Positions 2,825 to 14,167 of a stretch of DNA of 34,861 bases are shown in pieces (position 1 is the stretch's first letter; each line of letters starts with the position of its first letter). The translations under genes and the position numbers were made by a program. Source of the stretch: a virus; the IMG/VR virus record IMGVR_UViG_3300045988_168171, positions 1 to 34,861 of that record; one strand, 5' to 3'. The notes below the pieces were generated by a model. The model had not been told where the DNA came from. It saw nothing but the letters and a program-made list of their open reading frames with translations, and searched no databases.

Positions 2825-2853
2825 TTGACAACGCATATACTTTAAACTATAAT
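2825..2853 (+). promoter_or_regulatory. Rightward early promoter (perfect consensus)
   Basis: TTGACA (2825-2830), 17-nt spacer, TATAAT (2848-2853). It is flanked and overlapped by 9-bp palindromes gTTGaCAAc (2824-2832) and aTTGaCAAt (2852-2860). Confidence 0.65.
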
Positions 2854-2970: not shown

Positions 2971-3213
2971 ATGGAAATTGAAAAGAAAAAAGCACTCATT
3001 GAACTTATCAAAGAGTGTGATGATGCTGAATATTTGAAGCAAATTTCTTATACAGCACTTGTGATGTCAAATGCTGTTGCAGCCATAAAAAAAGCCAATT
3101 CATTGGCAGATGAATCGGCTCATATTAAAAAAAGGACCACATACAATGTTAAAGGAATCAAATGTCATCTGATAACCAATGATGATACTTCTCAAGGATC
3201 TCAACAAAAATAG
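2971..3213 (+). CDS. Hypothetical protein (80 aa)
   Basis: GAGGTG RBS about 6 nt before the ATG. The last 56 nt overlap the convergent ORF 3158..3352. Confidence 0.45.
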   Translation: MEIEKKKALIELIKECDDAEYLKQISYTALVMSNAVAAIKKANSLADESAHIKKRTTYNVKGIKCHLITNDDTSQGSQQK

Positions 3214-3352
3214 TTGCACTAATATTCACTATATCGTTTCCAATATTATTTGGGTCAAGTTCTTTTAATTCCTGAGGGAACGAATCAACTATTTTTTCAA
3301 TATCTTCATTCTTTAGATATTGAGATTTAAAATCATCAAAATTTTTATTCAT
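3158..3352 (-). CDS. Hypothetical protein (64 aa) on the opposite strand of the early region
   Basis: AAGGAG RBS 8 nt upstream of ATG 3352 (MNKNFDDFKSQY...). The ORF-track start 3376 lacks an RBS. Confidence 0.55.
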   Translation of the reverse strand: MNKNFDDFKSQYLKNEDIEKIVDSFPQELKELDPNNIGNDIVNISATIFVEILEKYHHWLSDDI

Positions 3353-3414
3353 AAAAAAACTCCTTTCCAAGAACATTATACAACGAAAAGGATCAATAGA
3401 AAGAGGTGATAAAA

Positions 3415-3552
3415 ATGGAAGATAAAGAAATAAATGATGAAATCGAAAGTTGTAATAAAAAAATTAAAGACTTGCAGTTTATAGTACTAATTCAAGGAAT
3501 TGCGATTTGTTTACTGGCAATGGTTAAGATATTAACTCTACTATTTGAATGA
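3415..3552 (+). CDS. Small tail-anchored membrane peptide (45 aa), below the ORF-track cutoff
   Basis: AGAGGTG RBS. Translation is MEDKEINDEIESCNKKIKDLQFIVLIQGIAICLLAMVKILTLLFE. Its 3' end overlaps the convergent ORF 3524..3916 by 29 nt. Confidence 0.45.
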   Translation: MEDKEINDEIESCNKKIKDLQFIVLIQGIAICLLAMVKILTLLFE

Positions 3553-3916
3553 TTACTGTTGCTAATGAAATAAGCAAGGAAAGAATGGCAATTTTCTTAC
3601 TGAATTTAGCATCTTTCTCGGATTCTTGAGATTGTTTTTTTGCAGAATTTGCCATTTGTTTTAAAGATTCTAATTCTTCATCAAGACGTTTTTGCTCATC
3701 ATAGCGTTTTTTTTCAAATTCAAGGTACATTTTTCCAGCTTCAGTAATTTTAAGGTAATTATTATCAATATCTTGTACTAGTTTTATATAACCAAGCTCT
3801 TTAAGAAATCTTGCAATATTGCGTTCTTCGCTATTCAACGCGTTTAGGAAGATATCTTTTTCATTGATACGTTTTAAAAAATTAGATTGTTCTTTCGTTA
3901 GTAAAGTATTTAGCAT
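3524..3916 (-). CDS. Putative winged-helix-like, coiled-coil, C-terminal TM-anchored protein (130 aa)
   Basis: From internal ATG 3916: MLNTLLTKEQSNFLKRINE...ARFLKELGYIKLV..., then a charged coiled coil and a hydrophobic tail KKIAILSLLISLATVIIQIV. The upstream 35 codons of the track ORF look non-coding. Confidence 0.55.
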   Translation of the reverse strand: MLNTLLTKEQSNFLKRINEKDIFLNALNSEERNIARFLKELGYIKLVQDIDNNYLKITEAGKMYLEFEKKRYDEQKRLDEELESLKQMANSAKKQSQESEKDAKFSKKIAILSLLISLATVIIQIVELIS

Positions 3917-4144: not shown

Positions 4145-4157
4145 AAAGGGGTAGATC

Positions 4158-4289
4158 ATGATATATGGAACATTAAAAGAAAGTCGCTTAAAAGAAGCCT
4201 TAGAAAGAGCACTGAATCTTAATAGATCGACAAAAGTTTCAGTGCAAATAAAAAAAGCGCCTTCCGCCGACCAAAGCAAGAGCGCTTAA
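4158..4289 (+). CDS. Small hypothetical protein (43 aa), below the ORF-track cutoff
   Basis: GAAAGGGG RBS. Translation is MIYGTLKESRLKEALERALNLNRSTKVSVQIKKAPSADQSKSA. Confidence 0.4.
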   Translation: MIYGTLKESRLKEALERALNLNRSTKVSVQIKKAPSADQSKSA

Positions 4290-4290
4290 A

Positions 4291-4320
4291 AGTGGATAGC
4301 CTAAAATATCCACTCCTATT
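4291..4320 (+). terminator. Weak hairpin / possible terminator
   Basis: agtggata (4291-4298) pairs with tatccact (4307-4314), followed by cctatttta. The stem is AT-rich and the U tract is poor. Confidence 0.3.
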
Positions 4321-4333
4321 TTAACACAGAAAG

Positions 4334-4473
4334 TTCCTGGCTTACAAGCAGGGCATCGGAGTTCCCCTTAATTCTGAACCGGTTTTATAAGCTCGATCAT
4401 TGATAATGTGCAGATACGATGGTCATTTAAAAAAACTTTTATGCGGTCCGGTGTTCTGCTTGTAGGTCAGGAG
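4334..4473 (+). ncRNA. Candidate structured RNA closed by a 27-bp helix (alternative reading: imperfect DNA inverted repeat)
   Basis: 4334-4360 pairs continuously with 4447-4473 (21 Watson-Crick plus 6 G:U). All six non-WC pairs are G:U only on the plus strand. The helix encloses 86 nt and no ORF is present. Confidence 0.4.
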
Positions 4474-4499
4474 ACAAAAAAAGAAAAGGAGATCTAAGA

Positions 4500-4700
4500 A
4501 TGAAAGAAATAACGTTAACAGAAGAAAAATTAAGGGAATCAGTAGCTAAAGCTGTATCAAACATCTTAGATACAGCTCCAAAAGACGAAAATTTTGGAGA
4601 GTTATTGATCATACATACGATGGTTGGAGGCATGATTGCAGTAGAATTGCGCAAGATTTTATTCGGGGGGCAAATCCTCAGACGACTAGCGAGGATCTAA
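4500..4700 (+). CDS. Hypothetical protein (66 aa)
   Basis: AAAGGAG RBS. First gene of the rightward replication operon. Confidence 0.6.
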   Translation: MKEITLTEEKLRESVAKAVSNILDTAPKDENFGELLIIHTMVGGMIAVELRKILFGGQILRRLARI

Positions 4701-5034: not shown

Positions 5035-5230
5035 ATGCAGACAGTTCATCATCCATCAGATCAAGAATGCAGAATATTCATTGGCATTCTATCGGCAGAA
5101 GGTTCTGACGTTGAAAGACGGAACGTCAGAGAAAGATATATATAAGATCCAGCTGATTGATAAACAGATCGAGCTGGAAAAATGGAAGTATTGTTTGAGC
5201 ATTTTGCAAAAGAAGGAGGAAGGAACATGA
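5018..5230 (+). CDS. Hypothetical protein (about 70 aa)
   Basis: ORF track. It overlaps both neighbours in operon style. The exact start among ATG 5018/5021/5027 is uncertain. Confidence 0.55.
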   Translation: MMAMNECRQFIIHQIKNAEYSLAFYRQKVLTLKDGTSEKDIYKIQLIDKQIELEKWKYCLSILQKKEEGT

Positions 5231-5895
5231 GTGCATCAAATTATCTTGTGATCCAGGACTGGATGATAGAGGAACTGAAATTGAAGGGCATGGATCTGAT
5301 CATCTATGCTATCATTTTCGGCTTCTCGCAGGACGATAGATCAGGCTTCGTAGGAAGCCAGAAGTACCTCGCATTCTGGTGCAACTCGTCCATAAGAGGG
5401 GTCCAGAAATCGCTTAATAAATTGACCCAAAATGGTCTCATTTACAAGTCGGATTCAGTGCTCAGGACAAGGAATCTAGACGAACTAAGTTCGTTAAAAA
5501 GCGAACAAAGTTCGTGTGAACAAGACGAACAAAGTTCATGTCAAAACGAACTCAGTTCGTGTCGAGGCGAACTTTGTTCCGAAAAAGACGAACTCAGTTC
5601 GCCCAATAATATAGATAATATATTTATATTAAAAGAAAAAATAAATAAAAAAGAAAAGTTGGATGCAGACGATGACGAAAAGAAACGTTTCAAAATACCA
5701 TCGGTCATTGAAATTGCATCCTATTGCAAGAAACGGAACAACACTGTTGATCCACAACGTTTTTTTGACTTTTATGAGTCCAAAGGCTGGATGATTGGAA
5801 AGAACAAAATGAAGGATTGGAAAGCAGCTGTTAGAACGTGGGAGAACCAGGAGCGAAAGAGAAGGCAAAGCAATGATACATTGCCATACGTATAG
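5227..5895 (+). CDS. Replication initiator / replisome-organizer-like protein containing the origin iterons
   Basis: AAGGAGGAAGG RBS before ATG 5227. The N-terminus is wHTH-like. The middle encodes repeated ELSS/EQSSC peptide from the DNA iterons. It lies directly upstream of the DnaB-like helicase. Confidence 0.75.
   Translation: MSASNYLVIQDWMIEELKLKGMDLIIYAIIFGFSQDDRSGFVGSQKYLAFWCNSSIRGVQKSLNKLTQNGLIYKSDSVLRTRNLDELSSLKSEQSSCEQDEQSSCQNELSSCRGELCSEKDELSSPNNIDNIFILKEKINKKEKLDADDDEKKRFKIPSVIEIASYCKKRNNTVDPQRFFDFYESKGWMIGKNKMKDWKAAVRTWENQERKRRQSNDTLPYV
5481..5601. repeat. Six phased 13-bp palindromic iterons (CGAACnnnGTTCG): putative origin of replication
   Basis: Copies start at 5481, 5502, 5526, 5547, 5568 and 5589 (spacing 21/24/21/21/21 bp), inside the initiator gene. 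Confidence 0.75.
5605..5658. promoter_or_regulatory. AT-rich tract adjacent to the iterons (putative DNA unwinding element)
   Basis: aataatatagataatatatttatattaaaagaaaaaataaataaaaaagaaaag immediately follows the last iteron. Confidence 0.5.
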
Positions 5896-5907: not shown

Positions 5908-7116
5908 ATGATCTCAGAAAAACAGGGAACCCTGGAATATCATCTTGCAGCGATTGCCTGTTTTGACGATAAGTTCATCCAGGACCCAAACTTGAAAATT
6001 GAACTGTTTACCAATTCAGGTCTTAGGGAAATCGTCCGTGTATGCAAGAAAGTGTTTTCTACAAAGCATACTCTGGCAATGGAAGACATCGTTCTGGAAC
6101 TTTCAAAGGAAGGCCTGGAGAACACGTATATCGCATTGATGGATCATGCGTATGAAAAATCAAGGTATGACGATCTGCTGGATCAGTTGCAGACAAGCTG
6201 GATGATACGTGAATCCTACGCAAAGCTGGACGGTGTCAATGCCGAAGAGATCACATTTGATGAATATCAGTCTCAGGTTGCTTCACTTGGTAAGGATTTC
6301 AACCTGGGCACAGCGTCCAAATGGTCTGAGCAGAAGATCCTGGATGAGCTGCAGCGAAAGGAAGAGAAGATCCATTTCAGAAGGATGGCCTTTTATGAAG
6401 AAGTCGTGGCTCCATCCAAGAAGACGGTCAATGTGATTGCCGCAAGGACCGGTGTTGGGAAATCGGCATATGCATTGAACATCATGAACGACCTGGCCGA
6501 GCAGTACAAATGTCTGTATTTCAACCTAGAGATGACAGAGAAAGAAATCTATCAGAGGTTAATGGCCATCCAAAGTGGTGTTCCGATTCGAAACTTTACT
6601 TTTATGAAACAGAATGAATTTGTTCGATTTCAGGATGCTGCAAAAAGGTTTGATCAAAAGATGAAGGTGAGAATCTATTCTGGTTCCAAATCGATCGAAG
6701 GGGTTCGAAAGATCATAGCCAGAGAATCCAGGAACGAGCATTGCCTGGTGTTCATCGATCATATTGGTTATATCACCAATCGAAAGATCAATAACACACG
6801 TGAACGAGTGCAGCAGATCATGATCGATCTGAATAACATTTCAAAGGATTTCGACTGTACCATTTTTGCATTAAGCCAGTTGAATCGTAACGCGGATGAT
6901 TCACCAAAGCTGATCGATCTAAAGGATTCAGGTGAGGTGGAACAAACAGCACACTCAGTAGTTCTATTGAATGACTGCACCAAGGATTACTCGGATTCGA
7001 CACCGAGGTACGAGCTGATCTGTGCCAAAAACCGAGGGAGAACGGGGAAAAGAGAGGTTGTTTTCAACAAAAATAATCAGCAGTTTCAGAATTTAAAAGG
7101 AGGGCTAGTCGTATGA
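5908..7116 (+). CDS. DnaB-like replicative helicase
   Basis: Walker A ARTGVGKSAYALN, Walker B-like CLVFIDHIGYI, and an ALSQLNR motif. GAGGTG RBS. Confidence 0.9.
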   Translation: MISEKQGTLEYHLAAIACFDDKFIQDPNLKIELFTNSGLREIVRVCKKVFSTKHTLAMEDIVLELSKEGLENTYIALMDHAYEKSRYDDLLDQLQTSWMIRESYAKLDGVNAEEITFDEYQSQVASLGKDFNLGTASKWSEQKILDELQRKEEKIHFRRMAFYEEVVAPSKKTVNVIAARTGVGKSAYALNIMNDLAEQYKCLYFNLEMTEKEIYQRLMAIQSGVPIRNFTFMKQNEFVRFQDAAKRFDQKMKVRIYSGSKSIEGVRKIIARESRNEHCLVFIDHIGYITNRKINNTRERVQQIMIDLNNISKDFDCTIFALSQLNRNADDSPKLIDLKDSGEVEQTAHSVVLLNDCTKDYSDSTPRYELICAKNRGRTGKREVVFNKNNQQFQNLKGGLVV

Positions 7117-7328
7117 TCGCAACTTGCATGAGAGATAAAGCTAAATCAAATGTTCATATCGCATCATTCAAGAACCAGATGAAATATGGTGCTGAATATG
7201 AAGAAGAGATTGTCCCAGGGACAACGATGCTTTTGATCCCGGTAGAAAATGAAGATATCCCGGAAAGTCAAAAATACAGGCATTTCATTGTAAACGGGAA
7301 GATATATTCATGCCTTTTCGTAAAGTAG
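7113..7328 (+). CDS. Hypothetical protein (71 aa)
   Basis: ATGA overlap with the helicase stop. ORF track. Confidence 0.55.
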   Translation: MIATCMRDKAKSNVHIASFKNQMKYGAEYEEEIVPGTTMLLIPVENEDIPESQKYRHFIVNGKIYSCLFVK

Positions 7329-8227
7329 GTGATTCGAAGAAAAAAGAAAATTTAAGAAGAAAGATCGATTCTTTTATCGAAGAAGAGATATGTGATGAAA
7401 AATCATCCAAAACGATATCTGCATATCGTCGTATCCCTTTTGATTTTGTTAATCAACTAAAAGATGGCCAGGAAGTGACAAAGAAGGATATCCTGGCTTA
7501 CAAGGATCACTTGATCAAAAAATACAAGGCATCAACGGTTAATGTATATCTTACGATCCTGAATAAATTTATCAAATATTGCGAGGTCGTAGAAAACACA
7601 GATGAGTTTGATTTCACGATGCTAAAGAAACATTATTCAAAAAATGTCGTGAAGAACATTCGTATCCAGGCTCCAGATTCTTTGGATGACATCCTGAATC
7701 CATCCGATTTCAAAAGGATGAGACGAAAGGCCAAGGAAAAAGGGGATATGCGAACATATCTCATCTTATCGGTATATGGGTTTACAGGCATCCGTGCAAA
7801 GGAAATTGATTTCTTTACAGTGGATGCATTAAAGGCATCCAAGGATTTTGTACAGGTGACAAACAAAGGAAAGACACGTAAAGTACCGGTACCAGGAACA
7901 TTGAGAAGAGATCTTCTTCGATATGCCAAAGAGAATCATATTGATTCAGGGCCTATATTCAGGAATCATGATGGGCAGCCATTGTCTTATTCCAGGATCT
8001 ATCGATGTTTGAAAGACCTGGCAGGAGAATGCAGAGGAATCAAGAAGTCAAAAGTACATCCGCATTCATTTAGACATCTGTTTGCATATTATTTCCTGGA
8101 AGGAAACGAAAGCAGACTGGCAGAGCTGGCCGATATACTTGGCCATAGTTCTCTGGAAACAACAAGGATCTATCTCAGAACAACGATCAAGATGAAAAAA
8201 CAAAAAATGGAAAGGATAAAGTATTAA
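7310..8227 (+). CDS. Tyrosine recombinase / integrase (XerC/D-like, 305 aa), apparently intact
   Basis: An N-terminal core-binding-type domain, then GIRAKE (Arg), HPHSFRHLFA (HxxR) and LGHSSLETTRIYL (His/Tyr). Confidence 0.9.
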   Translation: MPFRKVGDSKKKENLRRKIDSFIEEEICDEKSSKTISAYRRIPFDFVNQLKDGQEVTKKDILAYKDHLIKKYKASTVNVYLTILNKFIKYCEVVENTDEFDFTMLKKHYSKNVVKNIRIQAPDSLDDILNPSDFKRMRRKAKEKGDMRTYLILSVYGFTGIRAKEIDFFTVDALKASKDFVQVTNKGKTRKVPVPGTLRRDLLRYAKENHIDSGPIFRNHDGQPLSYSRIYRCLKDLAGECRGIKKSKVHPHSFRHLFAYYFLEGNESRLAELADILGHSSLETTRIYLRTTIKMKKQKMERIKY

Positions 8228-10238: not shown

Positions 10239-10362
10239 AAAAATTCTTCCTCTAATCATCTTGGCTCTAGCATTATGGCTGATGGAAATAATTAGCTTTC
10301 CATTGTTGGAAGACGCAGGACCAATGCCAGGAATGGAGTCATTTTATGAAGAATATCATTGA
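10231..10362 (+). CDS. Small membrane peptide (43 aa), below the ORF-track cutoff
   Basis: Translation is MIRKILPLIILALALWLMEIISFPLLEDAGPMPGMESFYEEYH. It overlaps the preceding stop. Confidence 0.4.
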   Translation: MIRKILPLIILALALWLMEIISFPLLEDAGPMPGMESFYEEYH

Positions 10363-10489
10363 AATAGTTTTAACTGTACTTGGATGTTTTTTAACGGTCA
10401 TTGTATACACCATATTTGCGATGATTTTATCATTAATCGCATTTTGGCCAATCGTATTGTTGGTTGGTCTTGCGTTTTCCGTAATGTAA
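10346..10489 (+). CDS. Small membrane peptide (47 aa), below the ORF-track cutoff
   Basis: Translation is MKNIIEIVLTVLGCFLTVIVYTIFAMILSLIAFWPIVLLVGLAFSVM. Weak GGAG RBS. Confidence 0.45.
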   Translation: MKNIIEIVLTVLGCFLTVIVYTIFAMILSLIAFWPIVLLVGLAFSVM

Positions 10490-13913: not shown

Positions 13914-14001
13914 GCAATGTTGGGAGAATTGGTGAATCCGATAGTTTGCTAAACTATTGTGCTGTCAGGCACTGAAGGTTCGAGTCCTTCACATTGCGCC
14001 A
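13914..14001 (+). tRNA. tRNA-Ser (anticodon GCU), type II with a long variable arm, CCA encoded
   Basis: Hand fold: acceptor gcaatgt/acattgc, 3-bp D stem, anticodon stem atagt/actat, loop ttGCTaa, variable arm tgtgctgtcaggcact, T arm gaagg-ttcgagt-ccttc, then gCCA. Confidence 0.85.
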
Positions 14002-14004
14002 GAT

Positions 14005-14090
14005 GCTGTGTTGGACAGTAGGGAGTCAAGTGGTCTTGAAAACCATCGTCCTTTGCGGGATTGTAGGTTCGAGTCCTACACACAGCGCCA
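14005..14090 (+). tRNA. tRNA-Ser (anticodon UGA), type II, CCA encoded
   Basis: Hand fold: acceptor gctgtgt/acacagc, loop ctTGAaa, long variable arm, T arm gtagg-ttcgagt-cctac, then gCCA. My fold leaves one extra nucleotide at the D/anticodon junction. Confidence 0.75.
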
Positions 14091-14093
14091 AAT

Positions 14094-14167
14094 GGCAGAT
14101 TGGTGTAACGGTAACATAACAGTCTCTTCAGCTGTTGAAGATGGTTCGACTCCATCGTCTGCAACCA
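14094..14167 (+). tRNA. Atypical tRNA-Lys-like gene (anticodon CUU in the canonical 7-nt loop reading)
   Basis: Cloverleaf folds (D stem gtgt/acat with GG loop, T arm gatgg-ttcgact-ccatc, aCCA). But 1:72 is a G-A mismatch, the loop is ctCTTca with C at position 37, and the variable loop is 4 nt. Confidence 0.6.

What the first reader, a model, noticed from the sequence alone, without database searches (positions are those of the whole stretch)
4334..4473. 27-bp long-range helix with six strand-specific G:U pairs enclosing 86 nt, in the 210-bp gap ahead of the replication operon
Every base of 4334-4360 pairs with 4473-4447 (i + j = 8807), giving 21 Watson-Crick pairs and 6 G:U pairs with no bulges. 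All six non-WC positions are G:U on the plus strand and would be A-C mismatches on the minus strand. This argues for selection on a plus-strand RNA structure rather than a plain DNA inverted repeat. Inside, 4395-4402 can pair with 4417-4424. No ORF is present. The element lies between a weak hairpin (4291-4314) and the RBS of the first replication-operon gene (4500). A perfect-register 27-bp duplex would be an RNase III-type substrate. Possible roles are a processed leader, an sRNA precursor, or an unknown ribo-regulator. The alternative is an inverton-like switch: imperfect IRs flanking a short segment, with a tyrosine recombinase 2.8 kb downstream. On the minus strand the interior carries a mediocre TGCACA-17-TATAAA promoter that would face the replication operon only after inversion.
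Basis: partly seen in the sequence, partly recalled or inferred. Interest (0 to 1): 0.7.

Follow-up and report, generated by a model that had tools for sequence, protein, structure and literature searches.

The report
Conserved plus-strand RNA hairpin in phage leader
A 140-base stretch just ahead of a gut phage's replication genes folds, as RNA on the coding strand only, into a 27-base-pair stem that is kept intact in all 16 related versions found; it is a real, uncatalogued RNA element, most likely a processing or stability signal in the messenger, not a DNA inversion switch.

Summary
Positions 4334-4360 pair in perfect register with 4473-4447: 21 Watson-Crick and 6 G:U pairs. This is the longest helix in the window (27 pairs; 14-21 in 200 shuffles). 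Sixteen distinct homologues from human-gut phage contigs keep the helix: 99.5% of cells pair, 12 of 26 pairs vary, and 3 pairs changed on both sides. Every copy retains 4-6 G:U pairs, which would be A-C mismatches on the minus strand. So selection acts on a plus-strand RNA.

The arms (85-94% identical) are better conserved than the neighbouring gene (66-82%) or the interior (59-65%). The interior keeps a small hairpin with a nearly invariant GAUAAUGUGC loop. The element has no Rfam match. It is an optional cassette: two relatives carry the same upstream module and lack it. It occurs in front of three different replication modules, most of them with no tyrosine recombinase in the few kilobases held. 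It was never seen inverted, so the inverton idea is not supported.

Just upstream lies a predicted leftward, lambda-OOP-like small antisense RNA: an extended -10 (TGTGnTAAAAT), a hairpin, and a minus-strand-specific terminator.

My best reading is inferred, not shown: a leader hairpin that RNase III processes and/or that shields the downstream operon mRNA. It is a new member of a known kind, of moderate interest.

The parts
4334..4360 (+). 5' arm of the long helix
   Evidence: Read directly. Pairs in register with 4473-4447. 99.5% of cells pair in 16 homologues.
4447..4473 (+). 3' arm of the long helix
   Evidence: Its Y-opposite-G positions toggle between C and U in homologues.
4361..4446 (+). 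Enclosed 86-nt interior. It is variable (four sequence types A-D) but keeps short motifs: TTCTGAA, TATAAGC, GATAATGTGC, TCAT.
   Evidence: Alignments A2 and A3. 59-65% identity between types, against 85-94% for the arms.
4395..4424 (+). Inner hairpin: stem 4395-4402 with 4417-4424. The loop carries the conserved GAUAAUGUGC (4402-4411; G4402 closes the stem), invariant but for one T-to-C change in L214.
   Evidence: In the MFE and centroid folds. A hairpin around the same loop can be drawn by hand in all four types and is the local MFE in A, B and C, but not in D. Stem pairs differ between types (A:U/C:G, C:G/A:U, U:G/C:G/U:A). It is weak, -5 to -7 kcal/mol, and type B has two mismatches.
4474..4502 (+). 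A-rich single-stranded linker, Shine-Dalgarno AAAGGAG (4486-4492) and ATG (4500) of the 66-aa first gene
   Evidence: The linker length varies among homologues.
4316..4328 (-). Invariant CTATTTTAACACA. Read on the minus strand it is TGTG-T-TAAAAT, an extended -10 of the Gram-positive TRTGnTATAAT type. A -35-like TTGTAA sits at 4347-4342, inside the 5' arm.
   Evidence: The promoter scan finds it with TG in the window, L208 and L219. It is invariant in all homologues, including two that lack the helix cassette. That it works as a promoter is inferred.
4291..4314 (-). Predicted 5' hairpin of a leftward small RNA; also a poor plus-strand terminator.
   Evidence: Two pairs changed on both sides (GTGGATA/TATCCAC against GATGGAT/ATCCATC). 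One variant (L087) has a G:U that fits the plus strand only.
4247..4287 (-). Minus-strand intrinsic terminator: stem 4287-4255 followed by a U7 run (4256-4250). It overlaps the last codons of the upstream plus-strand gene (tail KKAPS..KSA*).
   Evidence: Folds better on the minus strand in all 7 variants tested. One U:G pair is invariant and further G:U pairs exist only on the minus strand. The tail is shared by unrelated upstream genes.

Best explanation
The element is a discrete, plus-strand RNA cassette of about 145 nt, transcribed as part of the untranslated leader of the phage's early/replication operon. Its 5' and 3' ends form a regular 27-bp (up to 29-bp) A-form helix. The helix encloses a poorly conserved interior that keeps one small hairpin with a nearly invariant loop.

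Most likely it acts after transcription, in cis. The long duplex would be a substrate for the host double-strand-specific RNase III. Cut or uncut, it would form a barrier that separates the fate of the downstream operon mRNA from events upstream. In particular, it would insulate that mRNA from pairing between the leader and a predicted OOP-like antisense RNA encoded immediately to the left, and from 5'-to-3' decay started there.

Shown here: the helix, its strand specificity, its conservation and covariation, its cassette-like presence or absence, its fixed position between the antisense module and the ribosome-binding site, and its independence from the downstream gene set.

Inferred: that it is transcribed from upstream, that RNase III cuts it, that it stabilises or insulates the downstream message, and that the antisense RNA exists.

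My confidence that this is a selected plus-strand RNA structure is about 0.8. The figure given below (0.45) is for the processing/insulator mechanism.
For: - Helix far beyond chance. RNA fold z -4.55 on plus, -0.73 on minus.
- Sixteen distinct homologues: 414 of 416 cells pair, 12 of 26 pairs vary, 3 pairs changed on both sides (G:U to U:G, G:C to A:U, G:C to U:A). Sliding the partners drops pairing to 35-49%.
- Every copy keeps 4-6 G:U pairs, leaving only 20-22 of 26 positions pairable on the minus strand.
- Flanking genes are all on the plus strand. No plus-strand sigma-A-like promoter lies between the upstream gene and the cassette in four loci, which argues for read-through transcription.
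- The helix ends 12 nt before the Shine-Dalgarno sequence and does not occlude it.
- Its size and geometry fall inside the range of mapped B. subtilis RNase III targets: 10-36 bp intramolecular duplexes, cuts up to 505 nt apart, U-G wobble enrichment in the distal box (PMC11780869).
- The cassette is only found next to the antisense-like module (8 of 8 hits of an arms-only pattern). That module also exists without it, with the next gene's ribosome-binding site directly abutting (L249, L250). This is what an add-on insulator would look like.
- The cassette is kept in front of three unrelated replication modules and two different first genes. So its role is tied to expression at this junction, not to one replication mechanism.
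Against: - There are no transcript data of any kind. Cleavage, transcript ends and even plus-strand read-through are unproven.
- The arms are more conserved in sequence (85-94%) than a pure stability hairpin needs, and more than the adjacent coding sequence. The interior keeps short invariant motifs. Both point to sequence-specific recognition or a further function.
- Only about four deep lineages exist, and mosaic recombination blurs the count of independent substitutions.
- Most changes are one-sided C/U or A/G toggles, which a transition-biased DNA process would partly produce as well.
- The host is unknown. It is inferred to be a Firmicute from terminase similarity and 36% G+C, so the RNase repertoire is assumed.
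Confidence: 0.45

Rival explanations
1. The cassette is the precursor of a separate small RNA. The long helix is the excision signal (RNase III) or the stabilising closing stem. The interior, with its nearly invariant GAUAAUGUGC loop and other short motifs, is the working part: it binds a protein or pairs with a host or phage target in trans.
For: Short motifs are conserved inside an otherwise 59-65% identical interior. A hairpin presents the loop in all four types, by hand-drawn pairing in type D. The arm sequence is conserved beyond what pairing needs. The cassette behaves as a portable module.
Against: There is no promoter or terminator of its own (no U tract follows 4473). No complementary target for the loop exists in the phage: a 10-mer with 1 mismatch occurs at chance level, and a 14-mer with 2 mismatches finds only one same-sense match. 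The inner hairpin is weak and imperfect in the commonest type. No Rfam family matches.
Confidence: 0.22
2. The structure works as single-stranded DNA: a strand-specific hairpin exposed during replication. Examples are primosome-assembly or single-strand initiation sites, and folded recombination sites such as integron attC or the CTX-phage attP for Xer-type tyrosine recombinases.
For: Strand specificity also fits ssDNA, since G-T is tolerated better than A-C. The cassette sits at the head of replication/recombination modules. A XerC/D-like tyrosine recombinase is 2.8 kb away in this phage. The plus strand still folds better as DNA.
Against: With DNA parameters the fold is only marginal: -21.4 kcal/mol, z -2.1, 4 of 200 shuffles as good. 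The cassette is kept with three unrelated replication modules, and the tyrosine recombinase was not seen in the flanks held for two of them. The phage is a tailed dsDNA phage with terminase and portal genes. There is no dif-like core.
Confidence: 0.08
3. It is a DNA-level inverted repeat: binding sites for a regulator or initiator, or simply conserved 'linker' sequence at a mosaic junction used for homologous recombination between phages.
For: The arms are the best-conserved sequence in the region. The arms-versus-interior identity contrast and mixed arm/interior versions such as L209 and L218 suggest exchange of interiors and of flanking modules between phages. Several metagenome contigs break inside the module. 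The -35-like TTGTAA of the predicted leftward promoter lies in the 5' arm.
Against: Nearly all mismatches between the arms (6 of 6 in the window), and nearly all polymorphisms, are of the one kind that keeps a plus-strand RNA pair. A DNA-level repeat predicts no such asymmetry. Three pairs show changes on both sides.
Confidence: 0.07
4. It is an inverton: imperfect inverted repeats flanking an invertible promoter, flipped by the nearby tyrosine recombinase.
For: The geometry fits (27-bp repeats, 86-bp interior) and a recombinase lies 2.8 kb downstream.
Against: The same orientation appears in all 16 distinct versions from three collections. The recombinase is not seen in the flanks held for most phages with the cassette. 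The interior promoter is sub-threshold and not conserved (alignment). The strand-specific wobble pattern is left unexplained.
Confidence: 0.02
5. It is a miniature transposable element (MITE-like), inserted between the antisense module and the ribosome-binding site.
For: It has terminal inverted repeats, a size of about 145 bp, and presence/absence polymorphism.
Against: It is single-copy in the window and always at the same junction. There is no target-site duplication at the arm ends. The pairing asymmetry and covariation are features of RNA selection.
Confidence: 0.03

Closest known systems
RNase III processing hairpins in phage early polycistronic mRNAs (T7 R0.3-R1.3 sites, lambda N-leader and sib, Bacillus phage SP82 early mRNA sites; named from my own knowledge)
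   Same: A duplex of at least 20 bp in an untranslated stretch of an early phage transcript, just upstream of a ribosome-binding site. It is strand-specific and carries G:U pairs.
   Different: There is no sequence or Rfam relation. Those sites are local stem-loops, usually with an internal loop that directs a single cut. Here a perfectly regular 27-bp helix closes an 86-nt interior with its own conserved motifs. Cleavage is untested.
Long-range intramolecular RNase III targets in Bacillus subtilis mRNAs (PMC11780869)
   Same: Duplex length and span fall within the mapped range: 10-36 bp, cuts up to 505 nt apart, wobble pairs present.
   Different: Those are cellular mRNAs mapped by experiment. 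This one is a phage cassette known only from metagenomes, and its arm sequence is unusually conserved.
5'-proximal stem-loop stabilisers of Firmicute mRNAs that block RNase J1 (e.g. aprE, ermC leaders; named from my own knowledge)
   Same: A stable helix placed shortly before a ribosome-binding site, followed by an A-rich single-stranded stretch.
   Different: It is not known to lie at a transcript 5' end. No promoter was found immediately upstream on the plus strand.
Lambda OOP antisense RNA (pO-oop-tO) - for the neighbouring module, not the helix itself
   Same: A short leftward transcription unit sits between a small early gene and the replication genes, and its terminator overlaps the 3' end of the upstream gene. 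OOP overlaps cII by 52 nt (PMC5869508). Here the terminator covers the last ~11 codons and the stop (4255-4289).
   Different: There is no sequence similarity. The RNA is predicted only. Lambda has no counterpart of the long plus-strand helix between oop and gene O.
Invertons / phase-variable promoter switches
   Same: Imperfect inverted repeats flank a segment of about 90 bp.
   Different: No second orientation, no conserved linked invertase, no conserved interior promoter, and an RNA-type wobble asymmetry.

Membership tests
Any Rfam 15 family | Covariance-model score at or above the gathering threshold | tested here: not met
   The only window hits at gathering threshold are three tRNAs. A permissive scan of 4150-4600 gives nothing on the helix.
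RNase III substrate | Regular RNA duplex of about two helical turns (at least 20 bp) | tested here: met
   27 contiguous pairs, 28-29 in some homologues. This lies within the 10-36 bp range of mapped B. subtilis sites.
RNase III substrate | Paired cuts with a 2-nt 3' overhang that depend on the enzyme | not testable with these tools
   Needs end mapping in wild-type and rnc-mutant hosts.
Conserved structured RNA (general) | Pairing kept across homologues through one-sided and two-sided changes, on one strand only | tested here: met
   99.5% of cells pair, 12 of 26 pairs vary, 3 changed on both sides, and 0 of 500 shuffles reach any of the measures. Each copy has 4-6 plus-strand G:U pairs. Caveat: few deep lineages.
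Inverton | Both orientations of the interior occur in populations | tested here: not met
   All 16 distinct versions are collinear. Assemblies only; raw reads were not examined.
Inverton | Linked site-specific invertase | tested here: not met
   The tyrosine recombinase is present in the window and L207. It is not seen in the few kb held for loci with the SMC-like/AAA_24 or the DUF2800/PolA module.
Inverton | Promoter inside the invertible segment | tested here: not met
No site passes the consensus scan inside 4361-4446.
Intrinsic terminator | G+C-rich hairpin followed by a U tract | tested here: not met
   The 3' arm is followed by ACAAAAAAAG. The terminator scan does not list it.
MITE | Multiple dispersed copies and target-site duplication | tested here: not met
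   One copy in the window. All collection hits are at the same junction. No direct repeat at the arm ends.
Lambda OOP-type antisense RNA (neighbouring module) | Leftward promoter, short untranslated RNA, and an intrinsic terminator overlapping the 3' end of the upstream rightward gene | tested here: inconclusive
   An extended -10 (TGTGTTAAAAT) is invariant in 17 variants. The terminator is minus-strand specific with a U6-8 run. Sub-threshold Rfam hits in 4225-4345 are all on the minus strand. There are no transcript data and no homology to oop.

The most novel reading that the evidence does not exclude
The junction holds a modular two-RNA control unit: a leftward OOP-like antisense RNA plus an optional plus-strand cassette. 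The cassette would be either excised by RNase III into a stable ~100-145-nt RNA that presents the nearly invariant GAUAAUGUGC loop (acting in trans on a host factor or RNA), or a programmable insulator that decides whether the antisense RNA also silences the replication operon. Such portable RNA cassettes, swapped between gut phages together with gene modules, have not been described as far as I know.
Probability: 0.2. Interest if true: 0.6.

Novelty: new member of a known kind. Interest (0 to 1): 0.45.

Why it matters
Regulatory RNAs of temperate phages that infect gut Firmicutes are almost unexplored. This is a clean, comparatively supported example of a structured leader RNA, with a probable antisense partner, at the boundary between the lysis-lysogeny region and the replication genes. 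That is the same place where lambda uses OOP.

If the cassette is an RNase III-processed insulator or a small-RNA precursor, it gives a testable handle on how these phages time replication-gene expression. It also shows that non-coding RNA modules are exchanged between phages like genes.

Its practical reach is limited. The family is narrow (a few dozen human-gut contigs) and no cultured host or transcript data exist.

Tried and rejected
- Rfam at gathering and permissive thresholds: nothing on the helix.
- blastn of the region against 50,697 GenBank phages: no match.
- Two scans of GTDB representative genomes: none, then four chance hits, so the host stays unidentified.
- A 15-mer arm scan of IMG/VR gave mostly chance hits and was replaced by gapped patterns.
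- Covariance model R1 against 78 loci of other DnaD-type phages: no hit, so the family is narrow.
- Loci around the 59-aa upstream protein: only contigs already in hand.
- Second copies of the arm, same-sense or complementary matches to the loop region, and further copies of the -10 motif in the window: none beyond chance.
- Plus-strand promoters in or before the cassette in four loci: none passes the scan.
- A 19-codon ORF from ATG 4407 is not conserved (6 codons in type B), so it was rejected as a leader peptide or toxin.
- The 66-aa downstream protein has no Pfam or PHROG match. AlphaFold gives a two-helix hairpin at pLDDT 67. This was uninformative, and I did not run a fold search.
- Hairpin 2 resembles two inverted DnaA boxes (TTATCCACT) in most variants, but the L083 type keeps the pairing and not the box. 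I rejected it as coincidence.
- boxA/nut-like and put-like readings were considered and dropped. There is no similarity beyond UUUAACA, and the structure lies after the only upstream hairpin, not before it.

Full report
**1. The observation**

Read directly, 4334-4360 (TTCCTGGCTTACAAGCAGGGCATCGGA) pairs base for base with 4473-4447. There are 21 Watson-Crick pairs and six G:U pairs (4334:4473, 4340:4467, 4342:4465, 4352:4455, 4353:4454, 4356:4451), and no bulge. The repeat finder sees the same arms as 26 nt, 81% complementary as DNA, 86 nt apart.

An exhaustive scan of the window for ungapped helices (G:U allowed, span under 300 nt) ranks this first on either strand; the next is 19 pairs. In 200 dinucleotide-preserving shuffles of the whole window the longest such helix was 14-21 pairs, mode 16.

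As RNA, 4320-4490 folds to -54.3 kcal/mol on the plus strand (z -4.55, no shuffle as good). On the minus strand it folds to -33.7 (z -0.73). The inner pairing 4395-4402 with 4417-4424 is part of the minimum-free-energy and centroid structures.

**2. Context**

The window is a temperate, tailed phage genome of 36% G+C. Its features are:
- a CI-like S24 repressor on the minus strand (2124-2786);
- a perfect TTGACA-17-TATAAT rightward promoter (2825-2853);
- a DnaD-like protein (5182-5895), a DnaB helicase (5908-7116) and a tyrosine recombinase (7310-8227);
- three tRNAs;
- a terminase about 54% identical to those of Exiguobacterium and Geobacillus phages and about 50% to Ruminococcus gnavus phages.

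The host is therefore inferred to be a Firmicute. It was not identified: there was no nucleotide match in 50,697 GenBank phages, and nothing real in GTDB representative genomes.

The helix lies in the 210-nt gap between a 43-aa plus-strand ORF (4158-4289) and a 66-aa gene (ATG 4500, AAAGGAG at 4486-4492) that opens the replication operon.

**3. Homologues and covariation**

Neighbouring proteins and gapped DNA patterns recovered the element from several sources: 11 IMG/VR contigs (8 by the arms-only pattern), human-gut metagenome contigs, and Logan/ENA assemblies found through the 22-cluster family of the 66-aa protein. There are 16 distinct versions (alignment A3).

On the 26 pairs common to all, the counts are as follows:
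- 414 of 416 cells form a standard pair (99.5%).
- 14 pairs never vary, 8 vary on one side only, and 3 have a change on both sides (G:U to U:G and G:C to A:U in L207 and L219; G:C to U:A in L081).
- Only two cells are unpaired (C-A in type D, U-C in L216).
- None of 500 column shuffles reaches any measure.
- Sliding the 3' partners by 1-3 columns drops pairing to 35-49%.

The variable positions are almost all pyrimidines opposite G that toggle between C and U, or purines opposite U. Three GG-opposite-YY sites each appear as CU in some phages and UC in others.

Every homologue keeps 4-6 G:U pairs, which leave only 20-22 of the 26 positions pairable on the minus strand.

The caveats are real. 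There are only about four deep lineages (interior types A-D). Recombination mixes arms and interiors. Transitions are the commonest mutations anyway. Even so, a DNA-level repeat predicts equal numbers of plus-type (G-T) and minus-type (A-C) mismatches, and the data show essentially only the former. I take selection on a plus-strand RNA helix as established at about 0.8.

**4. Anatomy beyond the helix**

Against the window, identity for the more distant versions is:

| Region | Identity to the window |
|---|---|
| Arms | 85-94% |
| Interior | 59-65% |
| First 171 nt of the adjacent gene | 66-82% |

Arm sequence, not only pairing, is therefore under constraint or is being homogenised by recombination.

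The interior keeps short motifs: TTCTGAA, TATAAGC, GATAATGTGC (one T-to-C change in L214) and TCAT. A small hairpin presents the GAUAAUGUGC loop. Its stem differs between types in a way that keeps pairing (A:U/C:G, U:G/C:G/U:A, C:G/A:U). It is weak, however, at -5 to -7 kcal/mol. Type B has two mismatches or a shifted register, and in type D the local minimum-free-energy fold is a different structure.

Several other tests were negative:
- No ORF is conserved inside. A 19-codon ORF from 4407 shrinks to 6 codons in type B.
- No second copy of the arm exists in the phage, and no complementary target for the loop beyond chance.
- Rfam has nothing.
- A covariance model of the family finds nothing in 78 loci of other phages with related DnaD-like genes.

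**5. The neighbourhood changes the picture**

The conserved non-coding block is larger than the helix, running from about 4247 to 4492. Unrelated upstream genes (43 aa here, 81-84 aa elsewhere) all run into the same tail, KKAPS..KSA*.

That tail overlies a hairpin (4255-4287). It folds better on the minus strand in all seven variants tested. It has one invariant and several variable G:U pairs that exist only on the minus strand, and on that strand it is followed by U6-8. This is a minus-strand intrinsic terminator.

Read on the minus strand this is TGTG-T-TAAAAT, the extended -10 typical of Gram-positive promoters. A -35-like TTGTAA sits at 4347-4342, inside the 5' arm.

Together these predict a leftward RNA of about 65 nt (roughly 4314 to 4248), antisense to the end of the upstream gene. 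The layout matches lambda pO-oop-tO, which sits between cII and the replication genes and overlaps cII by 52 nt (PMC5869508). This RNA is inferred, not shown. One variant of hairpin 2 (L087) has a wobble that fits the plus strand instead.

**6. The helix is an optional cassette**

Two IMG/VR phages (L249, L250) carry the whole leftward module up to ACACA. The ribosome-binding site of a different gene follows directly, with no helix. Conversely, an arms-only pattern found the helix only next to that module (8 of 8).

The cassette precedes two different first genes: the 66-aa family, and a 119-aa protein in L228. It also precedes three unrelated replication modules:
- DnaD/DnaB plus tyrosine recombinase;
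- SMC-like/AAA_24;
- DUF2800/ssDNA-binding/PolA.

Several assemblies break inside the module (L213, L214, L217, L218), as expected at a mosaic junction where variants coexist.

**7. Mechanism**

*Shown:* a conserved, plus-strand-specific, regular helix of 27-29 bp closing a variable interior. It sits between an antisense-type module and a ribosome-binding site that it does not occlude. It is independent of the downstream genes.

*Inferred, with my best estimate at 0.45:*
- The cassette is transcribed by read-through from upstream, because no plus-strand promoter passes the scan in four loci.
- The duplex is a substrate for RNase III. Its dimensions fall within the mapped B. subtilis targets: 10-36 bp long-range duplexes, up to 505 nt between cuts, wobble pairs in the distal box (PMC11780869).
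- Cut or uncut, it separates the fate of the operon mRNA from events in the antisense-target region 20 nt upstream. It would block 5'-to-3' decay or hold the ribosome-binding site in a defined context.
- The phages without the cassette, where the antisense target abuts the ribosome-binding site, are the natural comparison.

*Rivals:*
- A small-RNA precursor whose interior is the active part (0.22). This is favoured by the conserved loop and arm sequence. It is weakened by the lack of its own promoter, terminator and targets.
- A single-stranded DNA hairpin such as a primosome-assembly or Xer-type folded site (0.08). The DNA fold is marginal (z -2.1), and the cassette is not tied to one replication module.
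- A DNA-level repeat or recombination linker (0.07). The wobble asymmetry contradicts it.
- A MITE (0.03).
- The inverton (0.02). Orientation is the same everywhere, the recombinase is not linked, and the interior promoter is not conserved.

**8. Comparison, novelty and verdict**

The element works like the RNase III hairpins of T7, lambda and SP82 early mRNAs, and like Firmicute 5' stabilisers. It shares no sequence with them and differs in architecture: a regular long-range helix around a structured interior. It belongs to no catalogued RNA family.

I class it as a new member of a known kind (structured phage mRNA leader or processing hairpin). It has an unusual cassette-like distribution and a likely antisense partner.

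The inverton is rejected. The function remains to be shown. The family is narrow and comes from uncultured phages, so interest is moderate (0.45).

Noticed in passing
window 4247-4328, minus strand: Predicted leftward small RNA of about 65 nt. It has an invariant extended -10 (TGTGTTAAAAT, 4328-4318), a 5' hairpin (4314-4291), and a minus-strand-specific terminator (stem 4287-4255 plus U7). It is antisense to the last codons of the upstream gene, a layout like lambda OOP. All sub-threshold Rfam hits in 4225-4345 are on the minus strand (SR6 antitoxin, sau-6072).
   Followed up: partly
L249 4820-4930 and L250 9940-10030 (minus strand of the loci): Relatives that keep the antisense-type module but lack the long-helix cassette. 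The next gene's ribosome-binding site follows ACACA directly.
   Followed up: yes
window 4250-4289 and homologues: Unrelated upstream genes (43, 48, 81-84 aa) all end in the same tail, KKAPS..KSA*. The ORFs appear simply to run into the conserved non-coding module.
   Followed up: partly
window 7310-8227: A XerC/D-like tyrosine recombinase sits inside the replication module, after DnaB. The relative L207 has the same arrangement and, in addition, a large serine recombinase beside the repressor, which is presumably the true integrase. The role of the tyrosine recombinase is unknown.
   Followed up: no
window 2825-2853: A perfect consensus promoter (TTGACA-17-TATAAT) faces right, just beyond the start of the CI-like repressor gene. 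It is the likely early rightward promoter.
   Followed up: no
window 3092-3121 and 3158-3916, minus strand: A leftward gene block (a 72-aa ORF and a roughly 130-aa ORF, likely ATG at 3916) with a strong minus-strand terminator is embedded in the rightward early region. Rightward transcripts must cross it in antisense.
   Followed up: no
window 4291-4314: In most variants hairpin 2 reads as two inverted DnaA-box-like nonamers (TTATCCACT). The L083 type keeps the pairing but not the box, so this is probably coincidence.
   Followed up: partly
window 13914-14167: A cluster of three phage tRNA genes: Ser-GCU, Ser-UGA and Lys-CUU.
   Followed up: no
window 10307-10481 (+) and 5476-5606 (-): The next-longest ungapped helices in the window, 19 pairs each. 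They are at the upper edge of what shuffles give.
   Followed up: no
L213, L214, L217, L218 (contig ends): Several metagenome assemblies end inside the module or the cassette. This fits co-existing variants at a recombination junction.
   Followed up: no
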